A stretch of DNA of 60,986 bases, the filler included, from Stramenopiles sp. TOSAG23-3 (lineage: Eukaryota): NCBI GenBank assembly GCA_900128585.1. It is 13 parts of 13 records of this genome, joined end to end, with 100 filler letters (N's around TTAATTAATTAA, not from the genome) between each part and the next. Parts side by side here need not be neighbours in the genome. Positions count along the whole stretch, not along the records: positions 14,160 to 18,770 come from LT643764.1; 12 more parts are not named here. One strand, 5' to 3'. Under the pieces are notes generated by a model. The model saw only the letters and a program-made list of their open reading frames with translations. It did not search any database and was not told the origin of the DNA. Made by a program: the position numbers and the translations under genes. Shown piece after piece: positions 1-60,115 of the stretch (position 1 is its first letter; the number at the start of each line of letters is the position of its first letter).

Positions 1-318
1 TTCTTCTTCTTCTTCTTCTTCTTCTTCTTCTTGCTTGTTGTAGTACTTGTGGTACTATTTATTAAATATTTATTATTAAAATAACCAAGAAGTAGTAGTA
101 GAAGAGAAAGACTAATTATTATATTTTTTAGTTTAAAAAAACGTGTTGCACAAATCTTTCTTATACGTCTTGATGTAGTTAGTAGAGGAAGGAATTCAAA
201 TTTATATACAACAAAAAAAAGAAGGGGAGCGAGTGTTTACACATTTTACATTTTTATTCAATTCAAGGCATTGCGCACTGAAAAGAAAACAAGGTTTAGT
301 TTACGTGGTTTTCTCACG

Positions 319-1650
319 ATGGAGGTGCCTTTTGACGTGGGGGCGTACGTTGGGCGGTATAGTGGCTACACGAAGCTCCGACGGCTGCAATTCATCGCGG
401 ACAAAGATTCGGCCTTGGCGGAGAAAGTGTACAAGCTGATCGTACAAGAGTTGAAAGCAACAAATAGTTTAAATGTTGGTTTGTACCAGTCTGTTGTTGA
501 GAAATCCACCGAACTGGAGATGGACGAAAAGTGGGTCTCCGAAAGCAGGAGTAGCGCCGAAGTACTGCAACAACATTTAGAGGAAGAACTGGAAGGGTAC
601 AAAAAGAATATGATCAAAGAAAGCATTCGCATGGCGAACAACGACTTCGTACAGTTCTACATTCGGTGCGGCGATTTGAAGAACGCCCTGTCGTACTGCT
701 TGAAGAACCGGGACTACTGCACCACGCGCAAGCACGTCCTCGACATGTGTTTGAAGGTAATTAGCATCGCGCTGAACCTGGACAACATTGCCCTTGTGCA
801 AAGCCAAGCTCTGAAGGGGCAGCATATCCCATCGTTGCAAGATGCGGCGAGCGAGGCGCACGAGCGTCAGAAAATCGTTGTGGCGACAGGAATTGCACAT
901 CTAGCGAAAAGGGAGTATGGGGAGGCATGCAGTTGTTTCCTTAATGTGTCGGTGTCGTTCGGGAACTCCTTCTCGTCAGTTGCTGTGGGAGAAGATGTAG
1001 GGACGTATACCATTCTTTGTGGGATAGCCGCTTTCTCCCGCCCTCGATTAAAGTCGGCGTTGCTCGACAGTGACAAAGCGGCCAAACTGATGGACCCGGT
1101 GCCGCATATGAAGCAGATTCTTTCTGACTTTTATGGGGGCAGGTACTCGTCCTGCTTAGCGGCGCTCCGGCAGCACCGCCCAACTTTTATCCTAGACATT
1201 TATCTCAGCGAACACATCGATCATCTGTACGAACAGATTGAGAACAAAATTATGCTACAATACTGCAGCGCCTTTTTATCCATTAAATTGCCCGTTTTAG
1301 CAGATGCATTAGGGTTGTCGGTGGAGGCAGTGACGAAGCAAGCCGTGAGCTTGATAATGAAGGGAAAACTCCAGGCGAAGGTCGACAGTTGTAATCAAGT
1401 TTTGCACGCTCGGCAGAATGATGAGCGGAGTACCATGTACGAGAAAACTGCAGATTCTGGAGAAGCCTTTGTTGCAAATGCCCACAAAACGCTTTTAAGG
1501 ATCAACATGGCAAAGCACAAGTTTGTCCATTCCGGCAGGAGAAACGGGAACAGCAGCGACAAGGCGACGGGGTCCTCCCAGAGGAAAGCACGTTCCCATT
1601 CCCGCATGCCGGAAGTAGATTTGAGGCTGAACACTAAATTGGAAAATTAA
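319..1650 (+). CDS. CSN1: COP9 signalosome complex subunit 1 (RPN7/PCI domains)
   Basis: N-terminal YSGYTKLRRLQFIA, central LEGYKKNMIKESIRM...RDYCT and C-terminal PCI (LQAKVDSCNQVLHAR) match CSN1/GPS1. First ATG at 319; intronless. Confidence 0.9.
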   Translation: MEVPFDVGAYVGRYSGYTKLRRLQFIADKDSALAEKVYKLIVQELKATNSLNVGLYQSVVEKSTELEMDEKWVSESRSSAEVLQQHLEEELEGYKKNMIKESIRMANNDFVQFYIRCGDLKNALSYCLKNRDYCTTRKHVLDMCLKVISIALNLDNIALVQSQALKGQHIPSLQDAASEAHERQKIVVATGIAHLAKREYGEACSCFLNVSVSFGNSFSSVAVGEDVGTYTILCGIAAFSRPRLKSALLDSDKAAKLMDPVPHMKQILSDFYGGRYSSCLAALRQHRPTFILDIYLSEHIDHLYEQIENKIMLQYCSAFLSIKLPVLADALGLSVEAVTKQAVSLIMKGKLQAKVDSCNQVLHARQNDERSTMYEKTADSGEAFVANAHKTLLRINMAKHKFVHSGRRNGNSSDKATGSSQRKARSHSRMPEVDLRLNTKLEN

Positions 1651-1794
1651 ACTCCTAATGAGATGTAAGATGTGTTCTGATGTATGATATGCGTGCGCAC
1701 CATATGTACTCGTATGTGCCAACCAACCTGAAGTGCAAGGTTCTTCAAAGGGATAGCACAAGGGAGAGAGAGTTTGCTTCTCAGTGCTTAATTA

Positions 1795-1915
1795 AATAAA
1801 AAAATTGGCGCTGTTATTTAAAAAGTACATTAATGAAAATTTATCTTCTTCTTATACCGCGAAATATGAATCTCTGGTCCTTTTGCCCATTAAAGGCTTG
1901 ACATCTCTCACTCCA
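1795..1915 (-). repeat. Diverged copy of the dispersed 3'-intergenic element
   Basis: Reverse complement gives tttcgcggtataagaag (motif A-like, ~1864-1848) followed by taaataacagcgccaatttt (motif B-like, ~1820-1799). Lies between convergent CSN1 and LRR genes. Confidence 0.6.
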
Positions 1916-1969
1916 TTAGATTGGGTACGTTCTTGTAAAAATCCATACTGAAACATCGCCTCGAAAGCC

Positions 1970-4108
1970 TCATTTTTTTTTCTGTTGAAACTCACTCTCT
2001 TCCAAATGCATTCGGACGTAATCTTTGGCGCGTTGGGGTATCTTAAACCTCTGAAAGCCCCTTCTCTTCACGCCCCCGCTTTGTTTCGAACGAGGATGTT
2101 CTCTGGTTCTTGGTTGGACGGGTGACCTGGCATTAGGGCCGCGACTATTCGCTACGGAGACATCCGAACTGTCGTCGTACTTACCCTCATACGACGCCGC
2201 GGTCCTGGCCGCTTCCTTGTCAATGCCCGGTACCTTCTTCTGGCCTACGTCCCCATGCCCATCATTAGGGATGGGCGCATCGCCAGTAAGGTGTACTATA
2301 TCCGCGCGGGCATATGCGAGCGCCTGCTGAAGACCTTCAGAAGATTTGTGAGGTGGCAAGGACACCGCCTCTGTTGACGTTTTAAAAACCGAGTCTGGCG
2401 GGGACTTACTTGCGCAACCGTCACTTAACATTGCGGAATGGCTCCTTTGAACCGCAGTCATCTTCTCTCGGCATTGCTTCAGCATCTCATCAACATCATC
2501 GAGGGGTTTCAAATCAAAATTAACACGCGCTTGAGTGCTAGTCTGGCGCATTTTGTACCCCGTAGAGACCTTTTGGGCACCCGTTGATTCCGGGCTGGGA
2601 TCGCTGTCGTTTCCAGCGAACAATTTTTCAGCCAGTGATCGAGAAAACGAATTATTGCTCCTCGAAACGTTGGACGTCCCCAGCCCGGCTTCTCCGCGCA
2701 AACTTTGGTCCGAAAACACACTACTGGGAACGACACCATCGCCTGCTTCGTCCGCCATTCCAGAGGAGGTTTGCCCAGAATCAGTGCCCTCTTCCCCACT
2801 GTTTCCGTCTCGTCTTCTGGCCGAACCTCGACGACTCTTCGCGCTCCCCAATTGTTTCCTCTGTTTGCTTCGGCGATTCTTATCGCTACGTTGCACAACC
2901 ACAGTTTCATTTTCCTTGTTTACTTCTTCCACCGAATCGCTACCGCTTCTCTTTACAGTTTTGCCGGACCCTTTACCACGAGTCTTGCTTGCTTTCTTCG
3001 CACCACCTGGTTTGGTAATGCCATACATATCTAGCTTAAAGCCATTTTCCAGACCAGATCGGTTTACACTCGTCCCATTGAACAGTGACAACGATCGGAT
3101 TGCTGTGCATACTTTGTCACCCATTCCCACAACCTGTGTCAGTGGGTTCCCTGACACAGATAGAACAAACAAGTTTTCGATAGTGGCCAAATTCAACAAG
3201 TCATCAACATCACTGAGCCGATTGTCTGTGACATCGACGACGTCGACATGCCTATACTTTTTTAAAATTGGACTTACTTGCGTAAAACGGTTTCCGGCCG
3301 CATAGAACTCATTCAGGGAGTCCAAGCGGGGGAGGTTGTCCCACTCCGAAAGGCGATTACGGTCGACTCTCAGAATGCTCAAATTCATCTTGTTCCCAAG
3401 TTTTCCTAGCTCCTTCAACGAGACAAGCTTGTTTGACCCCAAATCTAATTCTTCTAACAGCGGCAATTCACCAATGCACTTGCTTAAAGCTTTCAAATTG
3501 TTTTCCCTCAGAATGAGGTGTTTCAACGATCCTCCCAGAACCTCTAGGCCTCGAAGAGACGATAGATCGTTCCCACCTAGGTCCAGCGTTTCTAACTGTC
3601 GACAAGACGCAAGTTTGGATATGCCAGGTGTTAAGCTGGTCATCATGTTTGTACTCATTCGCAGCTCTCGGAGCTTTCGCAATACGTGCAGCCCGTACGG
3701 GAACTCTACCAGGTTGTTCCCATTGAGGTACAACATTTCCAAATTTTGGCAGTTTTCAAACACGTAATCCCCCTCAAGTTCTGGCCCTAAGCAGTTGTTG
3801 TGAAGTCGAAGCTCTCGCAGCTGCTTCAACTCGTCTATTCGGTTAAGGCGAGACAACTGGTTGAAAGAAAGGTCCAAAGTGCGGACCTTGGACGCTCTCT
3901 TCCCAAAGCTATCAATTTCAGAAATGTTACAGTTTGAGATTTCAAGTGTGTACTCGTCACACCGTTTGCGAGAGAGTTCAAGCGCCTTCTCCGATATACC
4001 CGTAACGGATGAATTCACTTTTATGCCGACGCCATTTATTAAGCTATGCACTAGCTCAGACGTCAAGACTACCCTCCCAGCGTCACGCTTTTCTCGCTTC
4101 AAGTCCAT
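1970..4108 (-). CDS. Leucine-rich repeat protein (SDS22-like LRRs) with a low-complexity C-terminus
   Basis: About 11 LxxLxLxxNxL repeats in residues ~50-345, then a disordered Ser/Lys/Arg-rich tail; 712-aa ORF. Confidence 0.85.
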   Translation of the reverse strand: MDLKREKRDAGRVVLTSELVHSLINGVGIKVNSSVTGISEKALELSRKRCDEYTLEISNCNISEIDSFGKRASKVRTLDLSFNQLSRLNRIDELKQLRELRLHNNCLGPELEGDYVFENCQNLEMLYLNGNNLVEFPYGLHVLRKLRELRMSTNMMTSLTPGISKLASCRQLETLDLGGNDLSSLRGLEVLGGSLKHLILRENNLKALSKCIGELPLLEELDLGSNKLVSLKELGKLGNKMNLSILRVDRNRLSEWDNLPRLDSLNEFYAAGNRFTQVSPILKKYRHVDVVDVTDNRLSDVDDLLNLATIENLFVLSVSGNPLTQVVGMGDKVCTAIRSLSLFNGTSVNRSGLENGFKLDMYGITKPGGAKKASKTRGKGSGKTVKRSGSDSVEEVNKENETVVVQRSDKNRRSKQRKQLGSAKSRRGSARRRDGNSGEEGTDSGQTSSGMADEAGDGVVPSSVFSDQSLRGEAGLGTSNVSRSNNSFSRSLAEKLFAGNDSDPSPESTGAQKVSTGYKMRQTSTQARVNFDLKPLDDVDEMLKQCREKMTAVQRSHSAMLSDGCASKSPPDSVFKTSTEAVSLPPHKSSEGLQQALAYARADIVHLTGDAPIPNDGHGDVGQKKVPGIDKEAARTAASYEGKYDDSSDVSVANSRGPNARSPVQPRTREHPRSKQSGGVKRRGFQRFKIPQRAKDYVRMHLEESEFQQKKK

Positions 4109-4622: not shown

Positions 4623-4722
4623 NNNNNNNNNNNNNNNNNNNNNNNNNNNNNNNNNNNNNNNNNNNNTTAATTAATTAANNNNNNNNNNNNNNNNNNNNNN
4701 NNNNNNNNNNNNNNNNNNNNNN
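4623..4722. other. Artificial contig linker. Also at 9343-9442, 14060-14159, 18771-18870, 23476-23575, 28178-28277, 32875-32974, 37565-37664, 42252-42351, 46938-47037, 51621-51720 and 56304-56403
   Basis: Identical 100-bp N44-TTAATTAATTAA-N44 spacer carrying stops in all six frames; the flanking contigs decrease in length. Confidence 0.98.
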
Positions 4723-5141: not shown

Positions 5142-7301
5142 ATGACGAAAGTGTTGCCTTCGGATGAAAAGGAAGGCCGGAGTGTGGCAGTGCGTCCTAG
5201 AACGAAGAAGGCTCGGAAGTCGCTCGTCTTGGACAGCCTTGACAAGGCCCAGGTCGCTGCGCTGGATACAAAACAATTAGAAAGCATAAAGAGCGTCGAC
5301 AAAATGCTGACTGCGCCTGAAATCTTGGACGAGAGCGCAAAAGGTCGGCGTCGAAGTATCGACGAAGCGTTTGGCCTTAAACGGCCGGTCAAGCGTCGCA
5401 GCTCATGCGCCCTGTCCATTTTGAGCGTGCTGAATCATAGATTTACGGGTATTTTTCTTTGCTTGACGACCATTTTGGCGCTATTTGCGTACGACCTGAA
5501 CAATGCTGTACTGCCCAAAGAGTGCGATTTCCCCGTGTTAGTAATAATATGCACATGCTTTACCATATTCGCGTTCGAGGTGGTGCTTTCCAGCTATGTG
5601 AACGTGGGCTACGCCGGCAGTTTTTTCTGGGTGCTTGACGTTGTCGGCACCCTAAGCATGATTCCGGACATTCTTCAGATCGTAGACGGTATGGGCACGG
5701 ACAGCGTCGACACAAACCTGGAAGTTACAAAGGCGGGGAAAGCGGGGCGAATAGCAAGGTCTGCCGGGTCTCTCAGAATTACGAGGTACGCCAGAATCTT
5801 TCGAATCGTCCGCCTCGTAAGAGTCGTTCGTTTGCTGAGAATAATCTCGAAGAGTGCAGGTCTGGACGGGGCAGAGCCGAATGACGCAGAGCACCACCGC
5901 TCCTTGGACGAGGCGCCGCGGCAGCGGCCTAGTAAAATTGGGAGGCTCTTGTCGGAAATGATAACCAAACGAATAATTGTTCTGGTCATTCTTCTGATCA
6001 GCGTGCTTCCACAGCTGGAACAAGAGGCCGGGGCCGGCCACGTGCAACCCTCCACGGTCCTGCGAGCTTTGGAGTTCACGTACAACACGTCCAGCTTTCA
6101 CAAGGCCGTGAGCGACATTCTCGTGAACGACCACACGATCGTGTACGCCCGGGTGAGGGGCGTGTTGTTCAAGGACGACGCGCACGCGCTCCAGCGACTG
6201 CGAGAAACGGAGAAATCCGTCACGTGCATCCCTGAAAACTGTTTAGATAATAATTTGCTGAGCGAACAGAACACGGTCATAGTGACGTCGTTGCTCGCTC
6301 AGATTCAGCTGCAGGCGTGGTTGCAAATGGCACTGTGCGTTTTCATAATACTCGTCTTTGGCACGGGAAGCTTTATCATTACCAGAGACGTCCATAAACT
6401 GATCGTTGTACCCATCGAAAGGATGACGAACGTGATCCGAAAACTCGCCAGCACCGTCTGCATACTATCCTTGGACGCCGACGTCGTGGACGACGACGTA
6501 TACGAGACCCAACTCCTTGAGAATGTTGTCCAGAAGATGGCGGGAATGTTCGACGTCGAGCCGGTGCAGACCCACTCCGTGCGGTCGGCCTCAAAAATGA
6601 GCCGCATGTTTCTGGGCACAAAACAGACCGAGATCGTCACGACCACGGGCACGTACATGGTAACCGTCGACGAAAAGTTTGCCCGGGGGACCGCCCACCG
6701 CCCTGGCAATTTCACCTCCGCCAGCAAAATGGAAATTGCGGCGGGTCCGCGCGGCGACAAGCTGTCTGGGTCTTTGCTTCGGACGTACACGTCTGGATCC
6801 CGGCCGGCAAAGAGTGGCGCTGTCACGCGGCAGTCCATCTCGTCCCAGAGCGTCTTGGCTTTGACAACGCAGCACGAAGAGCTTTCGTCCGTGATCAGCA
6901 TCATGGAGGACCCAGGCGCGTCGCAGCATTTAAAGCTCTATATGGCAAAAAGCTTGATGCTGGAGAATTTTCTTTTCTACACTGACGTGCAAAAATTTCG
7001 GGAGAGCACGACCAAGCAAGCCCGCCGTATATACAACATGTACATATCCAACAAAGCAATGAACCAGGTGAACGTAAGCGCGAGCCTCCGGTCGGAAGTG
7101 GACAGGGTCGTGGACAGTTCTGAAATGCCGACGAGCATATTCAATGCGTGCCAGGACGAAATTCTACGGTTGATGGAATTGAACTCGTACTACAAATTTC
7201 TGGCAAGCTCTCACTGCGACGATTACTTGAAGAAGAAGTCCAGTAAACGCCAGGTCTTGGCCGTGGAAGACGGCACCGCCACCCAGAACGGGCAGACGTA
7301 G
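5142..7301 (+). CDS. Six-TM voltage-sensor-like membrane protein with a C-terminal RGS domain
   Basis: Hydrophobic S1-S3, an S4-like RITRYARIFRIVRLVRVVRLLR, two more TMs, a HAMP-like LIVVPIERM linker, and RGS-like LENFLFYTDVQKF...ARRIYNMYI...NQVNVS...IFNACQDEILRLMELNSYYKFL. Confidence 0.75.
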   Translation: MTKVLPSDEKEGRSVAVRPRTKKARKSLVLDSLDKAQVAALDTKQLESIKSVDKMLTAPEILDESAKGRRRSIDEAFGLKRPVKRRSSCALSILSVLNHRFTGIFLCLTTILALFAYDLNNAVLPKECDFPVLVIICTCFTIFAFEVVLSSYVNVGYAGSFFWVLDVVGTLSMIPDILQIVDGMGTDSVDTNLEVTKAGKAGRIARSAGSLRITRYARIFRIVRLVRVVRLLRIISKSAGLDGAEPNDAEHHRSLDEAPRQRPSKIGRLLSEMITKRIIVLVILLISVLPQLEQEAGAGHVQPSTVLRALEFTYNTSSFHKAVSDILVNDHTIVYARVRGVLFKDDAHALQRLRETEKSVTCIPENCLDNNLLSEQNTVIVTSLLAQIQLQAWLQMALCVFIILVFGTGSFIITRDVHKLIVVPIERMTNVIRKLASTVCILSLDADVVDDDVYETQLLENVVQKMAGMFDVEPVQTHSVRSASKMSRMFLGTKQTEIVTTTGTYMVTVDEKFARGTAHRPGNFTSASKMEIAAGPRGDKLSGSLLRTYTSGSRPAKSGAVTRQSISSQSVLALTTQHEELSSVISIMEDPGASQHLKLYMAKSLMLENFLFYTDVQKFRESTTKQARRIYNMYISNKAMNQVNVSASLRSEVDRVVDSSEMPTSIFNACQDEILRLMELNSYYKFLASSHCDDYLKKKSSKRQVLAVEDGTATQNGQT

Positions 7302-7465: not shown

Positions 7466-8701
7466 TTATGGCACCGCGACGAACCCGCCCGTGTTCATGT
7501 TCCGCCGGCATCGGTCGTGAGAGTATATACAACCGCCCATCGCAACGTAGCACCCAGGGTCGAGCACGCCCACGGCGCCGAGCGCGGTGCCGATGTTAAA
7601 CGACGCGTCGGAGTTCTGAAATTTGTGCGGGCGCATGGCCGCCGTGAGGATGATGGTTTTGTGTGCCAGTTTCGTCTGCCGGGCAAGGTAGGTCGCCGTT
7701 GCTAAAATGGTGTCGGAACCGTGCGTAATTACAATTTTGTTCGTTGCAATTTGGACGGTCAGCTTCAACAGAGTGTCCAGGTCACTCCTGGTGATCTCCG
7801 TGGAATCTTTCCGGCAGCATTCGTAGTGCTCCACCTGAAACCCCAGAGGAACGTGCGCGACGGTCTTCAGCACCTCTTTGGATGCCGCCTCACCGATCTC
7901 GAACGCGTACCCATTCGATATGGCCGGGTAATCTTTGTCAATGGTGCCCCCCATCTGTACAAACGCCACGCGCGGCTTTGGCAGGGGTCTGCTGCTGCGG
8001 GGAGTGTCCACGGTCGATTCAACGCGGGGTGTGTGTGACCCCACGGCGGTCTTTGGCTCGTCCCGTTTGTTCGCATGCAGCGCGAGCTTGGCAAGGCCTT
8101 CGCCAAGTGTTGCGGAAACCAACATTTTCAGGACCGAATCCTCCGATGCCTGGCGCCGGGCGTTCGCCCGCGCCGCGAAGGCGTTAACCTCTTTCGCCGC
8201 CGCGTCCACCGTGAGCTTGTGCCGGTGGTGCAGCCAAAGGGCGCAGCACGTCCCTGTTCGGCCCTGGCCGGCACTGCAGTGGACCACGATACGCTCGTTG
8301 GCCGTTTCGGCGGCCGTCAGCGCGTCTAGCACTCGCTTCCGGGCGTCCTTCGAGTAAATGTCCGCCACGGTCTCCACCACCGCGTCGCCCCCAAAATGTC
8401 GCCGGTACTGCTTCAGCAACGGCTCCTTGTAAAACGTGAGCTCCGACCTCGTCAGCAAGCACAGGACCCTCTTGATTCCTTTCGTTTTCATGTGTTCGAC
8501 CCAGTGCTCAACCGCATTCTCTTCGATCGGCGGTCCCCTTGGCGTCGTCAACAGCCCCTCACGAGGGTGTACATGACCAGGGCGCGCCGCGGCCCACACA
8601 ACATCATCCCGCGACGACACTTTCGAAAGGTTGTACTTTGCGTTCGACGGTGGCGGCTTCCTTTCGACCCCACGGGCAGTACTGTCCCGGGAAAACTCCA
8701 T
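7466..8701 (-). CDS. Fusion of a dual-specificity/tyrosine phosphatase with an L-asparaginase N-terminal-type domain
   Basis: P-loop VVHCSAGQGRTG (CX5R); C-terminal half has MGGTIDKDY, ITHGSDT and TAAMRP...SDASFNIG. Confidence 0.8.
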   Translation of the reverse strand: MEFSRDSTARGVERKPPPSNAKYNLSKVSSRDDVVWAAARPGHVHPREGLLTTPRGPPIEENAVEHWVEHMKTKGIKRVLCLLTRSELTFYKEPLLKQYRRHFGGDAVVETVADIYSKDARKRVLDALTAAETANERIVVHCSAGQGRTGTCCALWLHHRHKLTVDAAAKEVNAFAARANARRQASEDSVLKMLVSATLGEGLAKLALHANKRDEPKTAVGSHTPRVESTVDTPRSSRPLPKPRVAFVQMGGTIDKDYPAISNGYAFEIGEAASKEVLKTVAHVPLGFQVEHYECCRKDSTEITRSDLDTLLKLTVQIATNKIVITHGSDTILATATYLARQTKLAHKTIILTAAMRPHKFQNSDASFNIGTALGAVGVLDPGCYVAMGGCIYSHDRCRRNMNTGGFVAVP

Positions 8702-16128: not shown

Positions 16129-17481
16129 ATGAGAGGTCCAAAGGTTCGAAATGGTGGTGCCGGCGGGACTGCTGGCCCTTCGTTGTTTTCTGGTGGGCCG
16201 ATCAAAGCCGTGGAAAGGCTCTTGTTTGACTGGGAGCACTTCACTACACTGGCGGCTCTTTTGTTGATTGGCGAAACGCTTCTTTGCGGGTTGATTATTC
16301 ACAAAATTCCATACACCGAAATCGATTGGAGAGCGTACATGCAGGAAGTCGAGGGCCCGTTCGTTCGGGGCGACTGGAACTACACCAATTTACGGGGAGA
16401 CACTGGCCCGCTTGTGTACCCTGCAGGTTTTGTATACTTGTACGAGGGTTTGCGACGGGTCGTGAACTGGGACCCAGTTACAGAGCTGATAAGCGACTCC
16501 CAGGCGAACGCTGCGATTCAAAAAGGGCAATGGATCTTCATGGGGATCTACTTGCTTGGCCAAGCCCTGGTGCTTGCCATTTACGCAACCGCCCGGCCAA
16601 AGCGTGTCCCGCCGTACGTTGGAATTTTGCTGTGCCTTTCAAAACGAGTCCACTCCATCTTTGTGCTTCGCCTGTTCAACGATGGTGTTGCCATGGTGCT
16701 TTTTTACGCCGCCCTTCTTCTCTTTTTGAAGCATCGCTGGACGATTGGGTGCGTTTTCTTCAGCCTTGCGGTCAGCGTAAAGATGAACGTGCTCCTGTTT
16801 GCCCCTGCCCTGTTCCTGCTTCTCGTCCGCCACGGCGGGCTGTTCAGTGCCCTTTGCAAGATTGCCGTGTGCGCGGTGATCCAGGTTGCCCTGGGCATGC
16901 CCTTCATGATGACCGATTTCTGGGCGTACATGAATGGTTCGTTTGAATTCGGCCGTGTCTTCAAGTACAAATGGACGGTGAACTGGAAATTTTTGCCCGA
17001 AGATATTTTTGTATCGAAACCATTGGCCTTGGGGCTCCTGGCACTGCACTTGTCGACGCTATGGTTCTTTGCAAACCGACGGTGGATCAATGACCGGGAC
17101 GACGGCAAGCAGGGGCTGTTTGGGGTGTTGCTATGCTCGCAAAACAAGGCTCTGGGGAAACGGTTGAGGGGAGAGTACATTGTCAACACGATGTTGGTGT
17201 GTAACTTTGTCGGCGTCGTCTTTTGCAGATCGTTGCATTACCAGTTCTACTGCTGGTACTGGCACGCCCTGCCGTTCTTGTTGTGGCAAAATGCGGGCCT
17301 TCCCGTGGCCGTCAAGCTGCTGATCGTTGGAGGGCTCGAATGGACCTGGGGTTACAATTTTCCTGCAACCCCAGTGTCCTCCGCGGTGCTCCACGTCTCC
17401 CACGCCGTGCTTCTCATCGCGCTGTGGAAGGCCCCGCTTGTATACGCCGCCACGGGCGAAAGCCAGAAGAAACGCCAATGA
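16129..17481 (+). CDS. ALG3: Dol-P-Man:Man5GlcNAc2-PP-Dol alpha-1,3-mannosyltransferase
   Basis: IPYTEIDWRAYMQEV, GDTGPLVYPAGF, SKRVHSIFVLRLFND, FKYKWTVNWKF, RSLHYQFY; C-terminal KKxx ER-retrieval signal (KKRQ). Confidence 0.95.
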   Translation: MRGPKVRNGGAGGTAGPSLFSGGPIKAVERLLFDWEHFTTLAALLLIGETLLCGLIIHKIPYTEIDWRAYMQEVEGPFVRGDWNYTNLRGDTGPLVYPAGFVYLYEGLRRVVNWDPVTELISDSQANAAIQKGQWIFMGIYLLGQALVLAIYATARPKRVPPYVGILLCLSKRVHSIFVLRLFNDGVAMVLFYAALLLFLKHRWTIGCVFFSLAVSVKMNVLLFAPALFLLLVRHGGLFSALCKIAVCAVIQVALGMPFMMTDFWAYMNGSFEFGRVFKYKWTVNWKFLPEDIFVSKPLALGLLALHLSTLWFFANRRWINDRDDGKQGLFGVLLCSQNKALGKRLRGEYIVNTMLVCNFVGVVFCRSLHYQFYCWYWHALPFLLWQNAGLPVAVKLLIVGGLEWTWGYNFPATPVSSAVLHVSHAVLLIALWKAPLVYAATGESQKKRQ

Positions 17482-17544
17482 TGCCGAGCGAGTACAATAC
17501 GCATTTTAAGTATATAATATCGTATGATACGTAAACTTAACAAT

Positions 17545-17745
17545 GGTGTATCGATTAGTAAAACGAAAAGGGCAAAGATTAATAAGTTTTCGCAGTACAT
17601 GAAGGGAGATGCAAACCTCCAATGTTTCAATGTAGAGTTCAGTTCGTTCGCAGTACATTAATTTTAATTTTACTTAAATAACAGCCAATTTTCTTGCTTT
17701 ATAATTTTGTGGTTTTAAAGAAATAACAGCCAATTTTCTTGAGTT
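17545..17745 (+). repeat. Copy of the dispersed 3'-intergenic element
   Basis: ttcgcagtacat at 17589 and 17647; aaataacagccaattttcttg at ~17676 and ~17721. Lies between convergent ALG3 and RRP40. Confidence 0.8.
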
Positions 17746-17899
17746 GAAAATTGTCCTTCTTTAGAAACAACATGGTGCCATCCGTTTATACGATTGCAGA
17801 GAACACATCATGATATACGACGATTAAAGGTCAAGTGCTGATAACAGTGGGAATGCGTCGTCGGCCTTGCCAAAGCACGGCCCCTCCGCCCGCCCCTCC

Positions 17900-18688
17900 T
17901 CATCTTTGTGCCAATTGGTCGTTCAGGGCTTCCACCATCGCAGGGACTTTTTTCTTCGACAAAAATTCGCTGTTTAAAATAGCATTGTAAATCAAAACCG
18001 TTTGGTCTTGTTGTTCGGCACGGACCCAAAAACGACCGTTCAATCCAACCGCAATTTCAAATGGTATTCGAGAGGCCAAATGGGACAGGACGACACTGTT
18101 CTCGTCCAACAAATTCCTTGCCAAGTTCAAGCTGCAGTGGCCCGACATTCCGCCGTCCAATTTACCGAACTGGGACTCCCCCGTTGTCCAATCCTTTCGC
18201 GCCCCATTTTCCACCATGCACGAAAGCTCCGGCTCGATATGAATACTCGCTTTTGACACCCTTGCGTAAATCAAAGTGCCCTCTGGAAGGTCGGGGTGGT
18301 TCCGTTTCGATGCCCCGTCGAACGCCAGCAACGGCAGTATTGCTGGGCAGCGTCCACGAACGTTAACAAAATACCCGGACTGGCCTATTCGCGATTCTAT
18401 GATTCCAACAACGGGGTCGTCGACCTTCGGTTGGTACCGTTTCTCGTGCGTTTCCACCCAAAACTTTCCTGGCGCCTCGAAGCAAAGGGTTCCAGGTTTC
18501 ACGACCCGAACGGTTTCATCCACGGCTCGCAGCCCATCCCCTACTACAACTACACGGCTCGCATGCTGCCGTACCGTCTCCGTGATATTGTCGCCAGAAA
18601 ACACAGTGCACGGTTTAAAGGCGGCTTGCTGTTCTACTTGAGACAGGAGCGAGTTCGTTAACTCCTCTGCGGACGGCCCCGTCGACAT
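17900..18688 (-). CDS. RRP40: Exosome complex component RRP40 (EXOSC3)
   Basis: KRYQPKVDDPVVGII, LAFDGASKRNHPDL, EPELSC, FEIAVGLNGRFWV. Confidence 0.93.
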   Translation of the reverse strand: MSTGPSAEELTNSLLSQVEQQAAFKPCTVFSGDNITETVRQHASRVVVVGDGLRAVDETVRVVKPGTLCFEAPGKFWVETHEKRYQPKVDDPVVGIIESRIGQSGYFVNVRGRCPAILPLLAFDGASKRNHPDLPEGTLIYARVSKASIHIEPELSCMVENGARKDWTTGESQFGKLDGGMSGHCSLNLARNLLDENSVVLSHLASRIPFEIAVGLNGRFWVRAEQQDQTVLIYNAILNSEFLSKKKVPAMVEALNDQLAQR

Positions 18689-20935: not shown

Positions 20936-21288
20936 GAATGATGGAGGAATAGATAAAAACTGTGAATTATTTCTTCTGTTTAAAAAGGGGGGCATTTGCA
21001 TTTGCATTAAACTGCATTTGCATTTGCCTTTCTTTTGCTTCTATCTTCTATCCCATTCCGGGAGGATTTATTATAAATTAATAATAATAATTAGAAACAA
21101 TTTGTCTAATGTCGTACCAACGAGTGAAACCATCAATTCCCATTCGATCGACCCATTGAAAAGGTAACATCGTCTCTTTCTTTCCTAACCTTCTCCCCGT
21201 TGCCAACCACAGATCTTTCCCGTGGGTCAACCTCGAAACATTGCCACACCCCGCCTGGTTCGAAGCACGCTGCAGGGTGAGGGAAAAC

Positions 21289-23109
21289 ATGTTCAGTCGG
21301 TCGGGGAAGAGGACCGGGGCGTCCTTCACGGTCCAAGTCGTCTGCGCGGCCGTCCTAGTTTTTTCATCCCGGTCGACCACCAGCCTTAAGCTCCGCGGCA
21401 GGATCCCGCTGTCCCCTCCCGCGAACAACCCGCTCGACCCCCAGTTTTTCAATTCGGACAGCCAGGCAGGGCTTGGGTTGAAGACCCGCCAACAGATGGC
21501 CCCGAGCGGGGAGTTCATCGTCGACACGAACGCGGAGGTCGGGTTGAACAACGCGTTCGACAACCCCATAAAGAACGCAGGATTTTTGAACGACTACCTG
21601 TCGATGACGAAGAAAGAGATCGCATCCGCGAAGAGCGCAAACATCGACCCAAAACTGGGGGCCGCCCTGTACGTAAAGACGGGCATTACGAAGCAGAAGC
21701 CCATGGGGATCAGTGCGGAAGAGCTCGGAAGCTTAGACTCGATGCAGGTGGCGCAGATGACGTCCCAGCACATGAACACGGAAGAGTGGAAAAGCGTCAA
21801 CGAACAGATAGAAGACCGACCGCCCGCGTTCCACGCACCCCCCGGCGACCCGGACTGGGGGTCCCTGAACAAGCCCATCTCGCCCGCGGCGAAGCGTGGG
21901 TTTCCCGACGGCACGGACGCGCACGGCGGGGCCCTCGGGGACGAGGGCGGCATGCGTGCCGGGGGGGGGGGGGGCAGGGGGTCCTCCGGCGGTTCGGCGA
22001 ACTATGACTCGAGCTACACCCCCGTCACCGGCGGGGCCGCGTGCACCCCGCCCCCATCGGGGTTTTTGCCGGGCCGGGGGTCCAATGCCCTGTTCAAACA
22101 GCTCGAAGTGCACGAAGGGAACATCGACCACGTCTACAGGGACAGCCGGGGGCTGCTCACGTTTGGGATTGGGCACTTGATCACTAGCAGCGACCCGGAG
22201 TACGGGAAGCCGGTGGGCCACCCCGTCGACGCAACGCGCATACGAACGGTCTTCAAGTACGACGCAAACAAACACTTGCAAGAAGCGAAAAGCCTGTACT
22301 CGAACTTTGCGCAGTTGCCGGAGGAGGTCCAGCTGATCGTTACGGACATGGCGTTCAACATGGGCTGCGCGGGGGGAAAGGGCCTCGCCGCGTTCAAAAA
22401 CATGAAGCGGGCAGTGTTGGCAAAGAACTACGTCGCGGCCGCAAGCGAGATGCAGAATTCCAGGTGGTGCGGGCAAGTAGGGAGACGGTGTAGTAATTTG
22501 GTCGGGAGAATGCGGGCGTTGGGAAACTGCGGGGACGGCGCGGCCCAGCAATCGTCCAGCAGTAGCAGCAGCAGCAGCAGCAGCAGCCGGAGGGCCTCCT
22601 CGTCCTCCAGCTCCGTCCAGCCGTCGCAGGCGCCCGCAGGAGGTGGGTGCCCAGGTGGCAACATTTGGACCAAGGTTAAAAACCATCGGGAAATCAGGCT
22701 CAACAATTACCACCCGAGCGGGGTCCAAGACCAAGCCTTCCCGAACTTGCAGGTCGGCGAAGCGGCAAAGGGCAACCGGGCGCACCTTTCGAATTACGGG
22801 AACGCCCCAGGCGGGTCCACCTGCTTGCTTCCCAAGCTGGGGAACTTTTTGCTCTCCCTCGCAGACAATTACGGGGGGGTCACCATAAACTCCATTGCGG
22901 GGGCCAGCCACAGCAGGAACTCCAAGCACTACAGGGGAATCGCGATCGACGTCGGGAAATTGAAAGGCAAGACCTTGAACAACTATGCAATGGCAAAGCT
23001 TGTCGTCGACACGTGCCACAAGATGGGAGGTTACGCCTGCTCCAACCCAGGTGGCAGGAAGCTTGCCGGCTGCCCTGGGCATAGTACATGGGTGCATTGC
23101 AGTTTTTAA
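21289..23109 (+). CDS. Predicted secreted bifunctional peptidoglycan hydrolase: GH24 phage-type lysozyme plus M15-like Zn peptidase
   Basis: Hydrophobic N-terminal segment; HEGNIDHVYRDSRGLLTFGIGHL (E-x8-D-x5-T), MAFNMG, AASEMQNSRWCGQVGRR; poly-Ser linker; SHSRNSKHYRGIAIDV...GHSTWVHCSF. Confidence 0.85.
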   Translation: MFSRSGKRTGASFTVQVVCAAVLVFSSRSTTSLKLRGRIPLSPPANNPLDPQFFNSDSQAGLGLKTRQQMAPSGEFIVDTNAEVGLNNAFDNPIKNAGFLNDYLSMTKKEIASAKSANIDPKLGAALYVKTGITKQKPMGISAEELGSLDSMQVAQMTSQHMNTEEWKSVNEQIEDRPPAFHAPPGDPDWGSLNKPISPAAKRGFPDGTDAHGGALGDEGGMRAGGGGGRGSSGGSANYDSSYTPVTGGAACTPPPSGFLPGRGSNALFKQLEVHEGNIDHVYRDSRGLLTFGIGHLITSSDPEYGKPVGHPVDATRIRTVFKYDANKHLQEAKSLYSNFAQLPEEVQLIVTDMAFNMGCAGGKGLAAFKNMKRAVLAKNYVAAASEMQNSRWCGQVGRRCSNLVGRMRALGNCGDGAAQQSSSSSSSSSSSSRRASSSSSSVQPSQAPAGGGCPGGNIWTKVKNHREIRLNNYHPSGVQDQAFPNLQVGEAAKGNRAHLSNYGNAPGGSTCLLPKLGNFLLSLADNYGGVTINSIAGASHSRNSKHYRGIAIDVGKLKGKTLNNYAMAKLVVDTCHKMGGYACSNPGGRKLAGCPGHSTWVHCSF

Positions 23110-25757: not shown

Positions 25758-26321
25758 GCGTGAAGCGACAAAGAAGACAGACAGAGAATTCAGGGCACGC
25801 CCACGTCCGTCCAACACACACCGCAACAAAAGAAAAACAACTCTTCTCTCAGACCTGAAAAAACAAAAACCGTCACACCCTTACTGTCGCACCTCTAAAT
25901 TAAAACAATTGGCCGAAACGGTTTAGAAAAAGAACACGCGCGTTTCCTTTGTAGGAAAAACCTTTTGCAACGGAGCTACATTCATTCAACGCGCACGCAT
26001 TCAAGTTGGTCGAGAGAGGACGAGACGGCCGGCGGCGGCGGAGGGAGAAGAAGAAAGAAGAAGAAGGAAGAAGAAGAAAAAAAAAGGAGGAAAAATTATA
26101 CAAAGGAATACTACCGTACCAACAAAAACCAGAAAAAAAACAGGTTTCAGTAGTATTATAACGTACCCTACGAGGGGTATTATATCTCCTGTATTTACCA
26201 CCTGTTTTTTTTACTTTTTTTCATTTATTAAGAGACTATATTTTATTATAGGTTTGCATTCCTTCAATAATAATTTAAAAACACAGACACAAGAAGGAAA
26301 AGCAAAATAATGGCTGTTATC

Positions 26322-32661: not shown

Positions 32662-33369
32662 GCGATCACTGCGCGCGTGTAAAGGATAAATTTTTGACTT
32701 TTGTTTGTGGGTTAATGGCTGTGCGTGCGTGTAAAATCATTCTCTTATTACGAGAAAAATTTGGCTGTTATTTTTTATAGTAATTAAAATTAAAGAAAAA
32801 AGAAGGTGTCAGTTCAAGAACAATGTCTCCTCCTATTACGGATCCTCCCCAAGTTCTGGTCGAGATTCCAATTGNNNNNNNNNNNNNNNNNNNNNNNNNN
32901 NNNNNNNNNNNNNNNNNNTTAATTAATTAANNNNNNNNNNNNNNNNNNNNNNNNNNNNNNNNNNNNNNNNNNNNAGAAGAAGAAGAAGAAACCTTCCCTA
33001 TATTAATATTTCCAAAATATTCATATGCTGTGTTTACATTAAATATAAACGTGACCAATAAATAATATTTTTTGTGGATAAAAAATAATAATAATAATAA
33101 AAAAATTTAAATGTTGTTGTTCTTTCTTTCTCTTGTAAAACATACGTCGAATTTTGGACGTAAGAAGAAAGGAAGGAAGGAAGACATTAGGAGGCGTTTA
33201 GACAATAAATTGAATTCATACGGACAGGTTGGTTTATACGTTTGTGCTTTTTAGTGGCTTACCACACACACGCAAGAAAGAAAGAAAGAACCGAATACGA
33301 CGTATCGTGAGAGTGGTGCCGCCGTGCCTGCCGTGTTTTGTTAAGAAGGAGAGCGAGGGAGACAAAATT

Positions 33370-54257: not shown

Positions 54258-54340
54258 CGAGAATTTGAACGCTCGTTCTTAAACGTGTTCGATAAACGTG
54301 CACCGACACGAGAGAGACACAATTTTTATATCATAATTAC

Positions 54341-54433
54341 TTAAATAACAGCCAATTTTCTTGTTTTTAATTATCATTAAGGATTTAAAGAAACTTTAAG
54401 TCTTTAAAAACAAGAAAATTGGCTGTTATTTAA
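54341..54433. repeat. Perfect 30-bp inverted repeat made of motif B of the dispersed element
   Basis: ttaaataacagccaattttcttgtttttaa (54341-54370) and ttaaaaacaagaaaattggctgttatttaa (54404-54433). Confidence 0.92.
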
Positions 54434-54513
54434 AGTAATATAAAGTCTTTCAAAGGTTTTTACACCAAAACAATTACGTGCGTATATCAAACTCTTCCCG
54501 TGCATCTCACTTC

Positions 54514-59830: not shown

Positions 59831-59914
59831 AAAGCATTTAAACAATTGTCAATTCCGATCGCATGAAGATAACAGTGTAGGCTAATTGACAGGAGAAAAT
59901 GGAGTAAGAAAACC

Positions 59915-60115
59915 ACAGGAGCAGAGGTAAATTCGCAGTACATGAAGGAAGTAAACGTTTACTGGGCGTAAAGAGCAGAAATAAATTCGCGGTACAGGAA
60001 GATATTTTTTTTTTTAAATACACTTTTCATTTTAATGACATAACCCAGCCAGTTATTTTGTTAAAACAAATTAACAAGATAACATTAGCCAATTTTTTGT
60101 TTTTAATTTAAAAAT
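59915..60115 (+). repeat. Copy of the dispersed 3'-intergenic element
   Basis: ggagcagaggtaaattcgcagtacatgaaggaagtaaac (~59918-59956), a second ttcgcggtac at 59986, and a degenerate motif B at ~60086. Lies between convergent genes. Confidence 0.75.

What the first reader, a model, noticed from the sequence alone, without database searches (positions are those of the whole stretch)
17545..17745. Unannotated dispersed non-coding element found only downstream of stop codons, on 8 of 13 unlinked contigs
Seen: motif B, TAAATAACAGCCAATTTTCTTGTTTTTAA (full, partial or degenerate), at ~1799-1820(-), 17676 and 17721(+), 26305-26321(-), 32755-32775(-), 35624 and 35837(+), 47051(+), 54342(+) and 54404(-), and ~60086(+). 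On four contigs it is preceded in the same order by motif A, TTCGC(A/G)GTA(C/T)ATGAAGGAA..TAAAC, usually doubled about 55-60 nt apart (1864-, 17589/17647, 35516/35578/35749/35806, 59932/59986). Every copy lies on the 3' side of a gene, mostly between convergent pairs. I saw none in the much longer 5' intergenic regions. Orientation relative to the gene varies. Inference: this is a high-copy ~200-bp element with conserved boxes and diverged linkers. It could be a non-autonomous transposon or SINE targeted to termination zones, or a protein-bound terminator, insulator or origin analogous to bacterial REP elements.
Basis: partly seen in the sequence, partly recalled or inferred. Interest (0 to 1): 0.75.

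Follow-up and report, generated by a model that had tools for sequence, protein, structure and literature searches.

The report
Retrotransposon tail stubs behind genes
The repeat is the tail end of a copy-and-paste jumping gene (a LINE retrotransposon) of a marine protist, whose many cut-short copies sit just behind genes and stay out of the DNA just in front of them, likely because the element inserts there by preference; it is an ordinary kind of element, and likely not a signal for ending transcripts.

Summary
Motif B has 1,182 exact copies in this 28.4-Mb genome (reversed control 0). In a 1-Mb sample, 102 copies lie within 400 nt behind stop codons and 0 within 400 nt before start codons. 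Motifs A and B are the 3' UTR of a non-LTR retrotransposon: the locus 17540-17705 is 81% identical to the end of a longer copy whose ORF carries a CCHC knuckle and a restriction-like endonuclease motif. A metagenome contig holds a 1,748-aa open frame (RT, CCHC, endonuclease) ending in motif B, and 83-98% identical pieces lie in this genome. Copies share the 3' end, are cut at varying points on the 5' side, and 14 of 119 keep a target-site duplication of 10 nt or more (control 1.1%). That is the signature of target-primed reverse transcription. Orientation is mixed, so it is not a strand-specific termination signal. It resembles CRE elements but lacks their single target site and poly(A) end. 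Open: whether the gene-end bias comes from targeting (about 55%) or from selection. The scan found this element before on other pieces of this genome; those notes agree.

The parts
17540..17705 (+). 5'-truncated retrotransposon 3' UTR, about 165 bp: motif A at 17589 and 17647, motif B at 17675-17703
   Evidence: 137 of 169 columns identical (81%) to the last 160 nt of the long copy L154
17720..17742 (+). second, minimal stub: motif B only
   Evidence: 21 of 21 identical to the 3' end of L214
16129..17481 (+). flanking host gene, ALG3 mannosyltransferase; its stop codon is about 60 nt before the element
   Evidence: Pfam PF05208, E 1e-130
17900..18688 (-). flanking host gene, exosome subunit RRP40, convergent with ALG3
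   Evidence: Pfam PF21262 and PF15985; homologues
1788..1899 (-). truncated tail with one motif A and a degenerate B, between convergent genes
   Evidence: 76-78% identity to long copies L136, L132
26306..26325 (-). degenerate B stub at the stop codon of a minus-strand gene (weak)
   Evidence: 2 mismatches to the 14-mer core; no BLAST hit to the tail library
32755..32874 (-). truncated tail of a second subfamily (no motif A, same B end); runs to the contig end
   Evidence: 86% identity over 126 columns to L325
35400..35652 (+). truncated tail, about 250 bp, including the last codons of the element's ORF
   Evidence: 71-75% identity to L154, L132, L136
35711..35862 (+). second truncated tail in tandem, A-A-B
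   Evidence: 73-82% identity to L154, L136, L132
47041..47083 (+). B stub just behind the stop codon of a minus-strand gene
   Evidence: 87-93% identity to library tails
54334..54373 (+). B stub between convergent genes
   Evidence: 97% over 37 nt to the L214 end
54403..54444 (-). B stub facing the previous one; an 8-nt direct repeat flanks it (within chance range on its own)
59879..60002 (+). truncated tail with two motif A copies
   Evidence: 76-78% identity to L136, L132, L154
60086..60109 (+). partial B stub
   Evidence: 23 of 23 identical to L132

Best explanation
Motifs A and B are the 3' untranslated end of a non-LTR retrotransposon with a reverse transcriptase and a predicted restriction-like endonuclease, and the scattered copies are 5'-truncated insertions, likely made by target-primed reverse transcription and likely steered to the DNA just behind genes. 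Shown: the shared 3' end, the falling copy number towards the 5' end, the ORF, the duplications, the position bias. Inferred: (1) the protein binds the last 30-40 nt of its RNA (motif B, shared by at least three subfamilies and echoed in a sister family); (2) it nicks AT-rich DNA, often at a T-run followed by A, and the A-rich 3' end of the nicked strand pairs with the U-rich RNA end to prime cDNA synthesis; (3) synthesis mostly stops early, leaving stubs of 25-250 bp between short duplications; (4) the gene-end bias comes mainly from insertion preference (about 55%), reinforced by insertion beside older copies, with selection against promoter insertions adding to it. The confidence given is for the identity and copying mechanism.
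For: Locus to long copy: 81% over 169 columns; in L154 the ORF's last codons end at position 1488 of 1649, motif A at 1535 and 1590, B at 1621. Long copies extend over 1.3 kb upstream into coding sequence. L214, a metagenome contig, has a 1,748-aa frame open at its 5' end, a stop at 5249 and motif B at 5340. 20 matches in this genome cover parts of L214 nt 418-3200 at 83-98%, the best 98% over 790 nt across the RT motifs. RT: nearest Atlas clusters carry RVT_1 (score 0.94-0.95); a sister-family piece in this genome, L208, hits RVT_1 at the cut-off (29.6 bits); profile comparison with 17 relatives gives probability 100% for the RT region (driven by the two full-length relatives P0075 and P0076) and 68%, E 5e-5, for the endonuclease end; the profile of those 17 relatives finds R2 proteins first in the PDB (E 3e-40). 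Truncation: matches of the 1-Mb sample to L214 fall from 84 at the 3' end to 17, 12, 7 and 1 in successive 100-nt bins upstream; 36 of 119 copies extend 30 nt or less upstream of the core, 16 of 119 more than 250 nt. Duplications at the 5' junction: 10 nt or more in 14 of 119 (11.8%) against 1.1% in shuffled pairs; 12 nt or more in 6 of 119 against 0.16% (8 of 127 hits dropped for short flanks). Bias: 102 hits in 81.0 kb behind stops, 0 in 119.5 kb before starts, 17 in 115.9 kb of other non-coding DNA. An unrelated 479-bp repeat is less restricted: 7 convergent, 9 tandem, 2 divergent of 18 classifiable loci (30 examined), against 21, 2, 0 of 23 (55 examined) for this element (Fisher p 5e-4).
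Against: No full-length copy is assembled in this genome; the RT-to-B link is complete only in L214, whose subfamily lacks motif A, while A-bearing copies are linked only as far as the CCHC and endonuclease region. The L214 ORF has no RVT_1 hit at E 0.1 and no sequence match in the PDB. 101 of 119 copies show no duplication of 9 nt or more. No empty allele was seen at this locus in 8 runs laid (contigs only). The control repeat is itself 3'-biased (29 of 44 called sides), so part of the bias is general. Gene calls come from my own ORF model and ignore introns and short genes.
Confidence: 0.9

Rival explanations
1. Same retrotransposon, but it inserts at AT-rich sites anywhere and the gene-end bias is produced by selection alone, which removes insertions in ORFs and promoters in a large marine population.
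For: The unrelated 479-bp repeat also leans to 3' sides (29 of 44 sides; nearest gene end 3' in 20 of 26). Most copies are old: 73-84% identity to the query among the 40 best-scored candidates, the self-match aside. The duplicated targets show only a loose T-run/A preference.
Against: Divergent gaps are long (median 1,068 nt), contain about 350 TTTTAA sites in the sample (3.44 per kb over 101.9 kb), and tolerate microsatellites of over 300 bp and the 479-bp repeat, yet hold 0 stubs, many of which are under 50 bp. The element is more restricted than the control (p 5e-4).
Confidence: 0.35
2. The stubs have been co-opted as 3' UTR or termination elements, as SIDER retroposon relics were in Leishmania, and motif B is kept by selection for a host function.
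For: Motif B is far better preserved (1,182 exact 20-mers) than the body. B occurs in contigs of RNA libraries, one 2,686 nt long from an oligo-dT library (strand and DNA carry-over cannot be told). The insertion at this locus is also present in other runs.
Against: Mixed orientation, both orientations in 13 of 19 multi-copy convergent gaps, and 73 of 106 convergent gaps empty. B's constancy is expected if every insertion starts there and all subfamilies share it. RNA contigs covering ALG3 stop at 17435-17522, before the element begins at 17540, where DNA contigs go on (a weak hint).
Confidence: 0.07
3. A self-contained short element: a SINE, MITE or REP-like protein-binding site with conserved boxes.
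For: Most copies are short and non-coding; some pairs face outward like terminal inverted repeats.
Against: No fixed 5' end; direct continuity into the ORF; pair orientation varies; no Rfam match at E 1 in 17480-17900. One subfamily (L325 type) was not followed to an ORF and could be non-autonomous.
Confidence: 0.03

Closest known systems
CRE-clade non-LTR retrotransposons (CRE1/2, SLACS, CZAR; related MoTeR, FoTeR, Cnl1)
   Same: Single ORF with RT followed by a CCHC knuckle and a restriction-like endonuclease; duplications of varying length; many truncated copies (PMC12278014, PMC12857005, passages read). The RT and post-RT motifs look CRE-like (recalled, not from a call).
   Different: Trypanosomatid CRE elements insert at one site in spliced-leader genes and generally end in poly(A) (PMC12278014); MoTeR and FoTeR target telomeres. 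This element is dispersed in over a thousand places, ends in a T-rich tract, and has much longer spacers in the endonuclease and a long low-complexity C-terminal tail.
Non-site-specific R2-group elements (EhLINE1/EhRLE of Entamoeba, HERO, YURE)
   Same: Restriction-like endonuclease with dispersed insertion (PMC3636483 section 8; PMC1635306 abstract).
   Different: EhLINE1 endonuclease prefers GCATT (PMC1635306 abstract); here the duplicated targets are T-run/A sites. I saw no report of exclusion from 5' regions in what I read.
R2 (R2Bm, R2Tg)
   Same: Domain order and, by inference, target-primed reverse transcription; best PDB matches of the relatives' profile.
   Different: R2 inserts at one 28S rDNA site.
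Leishmania SIDER1/2
   Same: Short retroposon relics abundant at gene 3' ends (search listing only; 3' UTR location from titles and recall).
   Different: SIDERs derive from the APE-type ingi clade (PMC12278014) and have shown roles in mRNA decay; no function is shown here.

Membership tests
R2-group (RLE) non-LTR retrotransposons | Single ORF with a non-LTR reverse transcriptase | tested here: met
   1,748-aa frame in L214; (L208). Pfam RVT_1 does not hit the L214 ORF itself.
R2-group (RLE) non-LTR retrotransposons | CCHC knuckle followed by an RHN/D-like motif, downstream of RT | tested here: met
   C-X8-H-X3-C-X9-HN, invariant in 7 of 7 aligned sequences; fits the consensus quoted in PMC12857005 except for a longer first spacer and R replaced in most rows.
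R2-group (RLE) non-LTR retrotransposons | PD-(D/E)xK endonuclease after the knuckle | tested here: met
   By sequence: AD, DV and E..K..KY-like motifs in order with enlarged spacers; profile match probability 68%, E 5e-5. Activity untested.
R2-group (RLE) non-LTR retrotransposons | Endonuclease fold | tested here: inconclusive
   Model mean pLDDT 48; too weak for the fold searches.
R2-group (RLE) non-LTR retrotransposons | Fixed 3' end, 5' truncation, variable target-site duplications | tested here: met
CRE clade in the strict sense | RT groups with CRE1/SLACS/CZAR in a tree | not testable with these tools
   No named CRE sequence was returned; 20 relatives looked up were unnamed or 'hypothetical' but for one Closterium and one Porphyridium record.
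CRE clade in the strict sense | Insertion at one site of a repeated target (spliced leader or telomere) | tested here: not met
   Dispersed copies with unrelated duplicated targets.
CRE clade in the strict sense | Poly(A) 3' end | tested here: not met
   Copies end in CTTG and a T-run, then at most two weakly favoured A columns (59%, 51%).
SINE or MITE | Fixed 5' end without coding sequence, or terminal inverted repeats | tested here: not met
Strand-specific termination or poly(A) signal | Sense orientation behind most genes | tested here: not met
   35 sense, 59 antisense of 94; absent from 73 of 106 convergent gaps.

The most novel reading that the evidence does not exclude
A CRE-like retrotransposon that has given up a fixed target sequence and instead recognises the zone where RNA polymerase II terminates (through chromatin, R-loops or a 3'-end processing factor), priming on a U-rich RNA end. 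It would be a LINE with a new safe-harbour strategy for a gene-dense genome, parallel to the tRNA-gene and promoter targeting known from Ty and Tf elements.
Probability: 0.3. Interest if true: 0.65.

Novelty: new variant of a known kind. Interest (0 to 1): 0.3.

Why it matters
As it stands, it removes a false lead: a motif that looks like a 3'-end signal is retrotransposon debris, and standard Pfam searches miss the parent's RT. If the 102-to-0 bias reflects active targeting, it would show an endonuclease LINE reading transcription-end context instead of a DNA sequence, which bears on how mobile elements persist in compact genomes and on steering R2-type gene-insertion tools. Targeting is not shown.

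Tried and rejected
A Pfam RVT_1 search of the genome gave 8 matches, all Gypsy-like or DIRS-like by their ORFs and none ending in motif B; it missed this family's RT. phmmer of the L214 ORF against the PDB: 0 matches. Structure model of the endonuclease region was poor (pLDDT 48); Foldseek gave nothing at E 0.001 (R2Tg at rank 8, E 2.5) and VIA-align a best Z of 4.1. Rfam on 17480-17900: 0 matches. A first duplication test over 600 nt of upstream sequence was noisy (10 nt or more: 33% against 10%) and was replaced by the junction-anchored test. Laying 8 runs on this locus showed no joint that skips the element; contigs cannot show absence. MITE, Helitron, piggyBac and hammerhead/Penelope readings were considered by eye and dropped once the ORF link appeared; no family search was run for them. 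The 479-bp control repeat was first taken for a MITE but its ends are not inverted repeats; its class is unknown. Paper searches listed no paper on this family or on an RLE element restricted to gene 3' ends; the library lacks most subscription journals, and Repbase and Dfam could not be searched.

Full report
Setting. The window is 13 contigs of about 4.6 kb joined by spacers, from a 28.4-Mb assembly in 7,088 contigs. Genes are long and mostly unbroken eukaryotic ORFs. The best named relatives of RRP40 are oomycetes at 38-44% identity and the holders are marine runs, so the host is inferred to be an uncultured marine stramenopile.

Observation. Genome-wide there are 1,182 exact copies of a B 20-mer (control 0) and 846 of an A 12-mer (control 5). 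I took the first 10 kb of contigs C1-C100 (1.0 of 28.4 Mb, chosen by number) and called 409 genes with a hexamer ORF model. A 14-nt B core with at most one mismatch gave 127 hits: 76 convergent, 18 tandem, 0 divergent, 26 at stretch ends on a 3' side, 5 at stretch ends on a 5' side, 2 in called ORFs. By gap: 33 of 106, 16 of 112, 0 of 90 (p 1e-10). In tandem gaps the copies lie nearer the stop in 13 of 16 (p 0.02). By distance: 102 hits in 81.0 kb within 400 nt behind a stop, 0 in 119.5 kb within 400 nt before a start, 17 in 115.9 kb elsewhere; the other 8 are in ORFs or overlapping zones; median distance 175 nt to a stop and 1,512 nt to a start. GC content does not differ.

Anatomy. Aligned copies have a sharp 3' end (CTTG and a T-run) and no common 5' end. 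Upstream they fall into at least three subfamilies that converge on the same last 35-40 nt. Searching with a 358-nt tail gave 432 candidates, 40 scored, 73-84% identical apart from the self-match. Several continue more than 1.3 kb upstream into coding sequence. In L154 this codes a CCHC knuckle and endonuclease-like motifs; the ORF's last codons end about 45 nt before the first motif A. The finding's own locus, 17540-17705, matches the last 160 nt of L154 at 81%. So A-A-B is a 3' UTR, and the doubling of A is a feature of that UTR.

The parent. Longer relatives exist in public metagenomes. L214 holds a frame of 1,748 aa, open at its 5' end, with RT motifs, a post-RT GGMG motif, the knuckle and the endonuclease, then about 115 nt ending in motif B. 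Its subfamily lacks motif A. This genome has 20 matches to L214 nt 1-3200 at 83-98%, mostly short contigs or contig ends, as expected for a collapsed repeat; no full copy is assembled. The RT is divergent: RVT_1 misses it but hits the sister piece L208 at the cut-off. Its nearest full-length relatives among 1.84 billion representatives have the RT-CCHC-endonuclease layout; 17 of them, picked by length from the 150 listed, were aligned. That profile matches this family over the RT (probability 100%) and the endonuclease end (68%, E 5e-5), and finds R2 proteins first in the PDB. A sister family at about 54% protein identity ends in a related tail containing AATAGCCAAT (L222, L223), which fits B being the RNA recognition site (inference).

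Mechanism. Copy number falls steeply from the 3' end (84, 17, 12, 7, 1 per 100-nt bin). At the 5' junction, 14 of 119 copies have a direct repeat of 10-17 nt that recurs right after the tail, against 1.1% of shuffled pairs. Many of these repeats begin with a T-run followed by A, overlapping the T-rich end of the element, which suggests priming by pairing of an A-rich DNA end with a U-rich RNA end (inference). Most copies (101 of 119) show no repeat of 9 nt or more, and junctions often contain extra bases; age and imprecise joining would explain this but were not tested. Copies cluster: variance 2.0 against mean 0.72 per convergent gap, both orientations in 13 of 19 multi-copy gaps, and some duplicated targets lie inside older tails.

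Why behind genes. Divergent gaps offer AT-rich sites and tolerate long microsatellites and another repeat, yet hold no stub. A 479-bp unrelated repeat was in 7 convergent, 9 tandem and 2 divergent gaps (18 classifiable of 30 loci); tails of this element were in 21, 2 and 0 (23 of 55) (p 5e-4). This favours an insertion preference, but the control is one family of unknown class and is itself 3'-biased, so selection contributes. I put targeting as main cause at about 55%, selection alone at about 35%.

Against a host signal. Orientation to the nearest gene end is 59 antisense to 35 sense (hits are not independent) and most convergent gaps lack B. RNA-library contigs over ALG3 stop before the element while DNA contigs run into it, a weak hint only; other RNA-library contigs do contain B, so some copies may lie in transcripts. 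No empty allele was seen at this locus.

Comparison. R2-group elements are defined by one ORF with RT followed by a PD-(D/E)XK-like endonuclease, and some are not site-specific (PMC3636483: passages and section 8 read). CRE elements of trypanosomatids insert in spliced-leader genes and generally end in poly(A) (PMC12278014: passages). The endonuclease consensus comes from PMC12857005 (passages). EhLINE1 is dispersed and nicks GCATT (PMC1635306: abstract and outline). PMC5029228 (passages) added nothing on this family. SIDER and Utopia papers were seen as search listings only. No supplements were read. The element is a member of the R2 group and works like a CRE element, but fails the target-site and poly(A) tests for CRE in the strict sense; its place in a tree could not be tested. 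'CRE-like' for the RT motifs rests on recall.

Earlier notes. After my reading was fixed I looked at the scan's earlier findings: 7 of the 8 shown describe this same element on other pieces of the genome and reach the same conclusion. They are not independent evidence.

Verdict. Real, highly significant, and explained: truncated tails of a new, divergent RLE LINE family. The one unusual feature is the near-total restriction to gene ends, whose cause is open.

Noticed in passing
L179:6677-7909 (G000:C2323): A 411-aa open frame right behind a B tail begins with a segment like the end of the endonuclease domain and carries a weak Ulp1/C48 protease hit (E 0.09): possibly a related LINE family with a protease after the endonuclease.
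   Followed up: partly
many copies, e.g. L035:4802, L103:6340, L012:1970: Short insertions and duplications concentrate at one point inside the tail, between the TACTT and AAATAAC parts, about 30 nt from the 3' end; may mark a pause or slip early in reverse transcription.
   Followed up: no
L214:5299-5312: One subfamily's 3' UTR contains a telomere-like GTTAGGATTAGGG just upstream of motif B; relatives MoTeR and FoTeR target telomeres.
   Followed up: no
L137 upstream region; L070:1441-1695: A tail that shares the telomere-like part but ends in a different terminal motif, suggesting a second family or recombination between 3' UTRs.
   Followed up: no
L103:1537-2015 and 131 other candidates: A fixed-length 479-bp dispersed repeat, 79-96% identical between copies, without terminal inverted repeats; class unknown.
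   Followed up: partly
G000:C2763, C2845, C4346; C4033, C3226, C4197, C3182, C2669: Long-ORF Ty3/Gypsy-like elements and DIRS-like elements with overlapping RT and tyrosine-recombinase-like frames (class names by motif recall).
   Followed up: partly
divergent and tandem gaps in C1-C100, e.g. L025:7243-7637: Imperfect GAA/AAAG microsatellites of 250-500 bp are common, many in divergent gaps.
   Followed up: no
window 21241-23109 (+): A 622-aa eukaryotic ORF with a phage-lysozyme domain above the Pfam cut-off (E 3e-6); may serve in digesting bacteria.
   Followed up: no
window 7466-8701 (-): Fusion of a dual-specificity phosphatase domain and an asparaginase N-terminal domain.
   Followed up: no
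window 5142-7301 (+): Ion-transport-like membrane domain (just under the cut-off) fused to an RGS domain.
   Followed up: no
window 4623-4722 and 11 more: The spacers between contigs are artificial: 44 N, a 12-base TTAA repeat, 44 N.
   Followed up: yes
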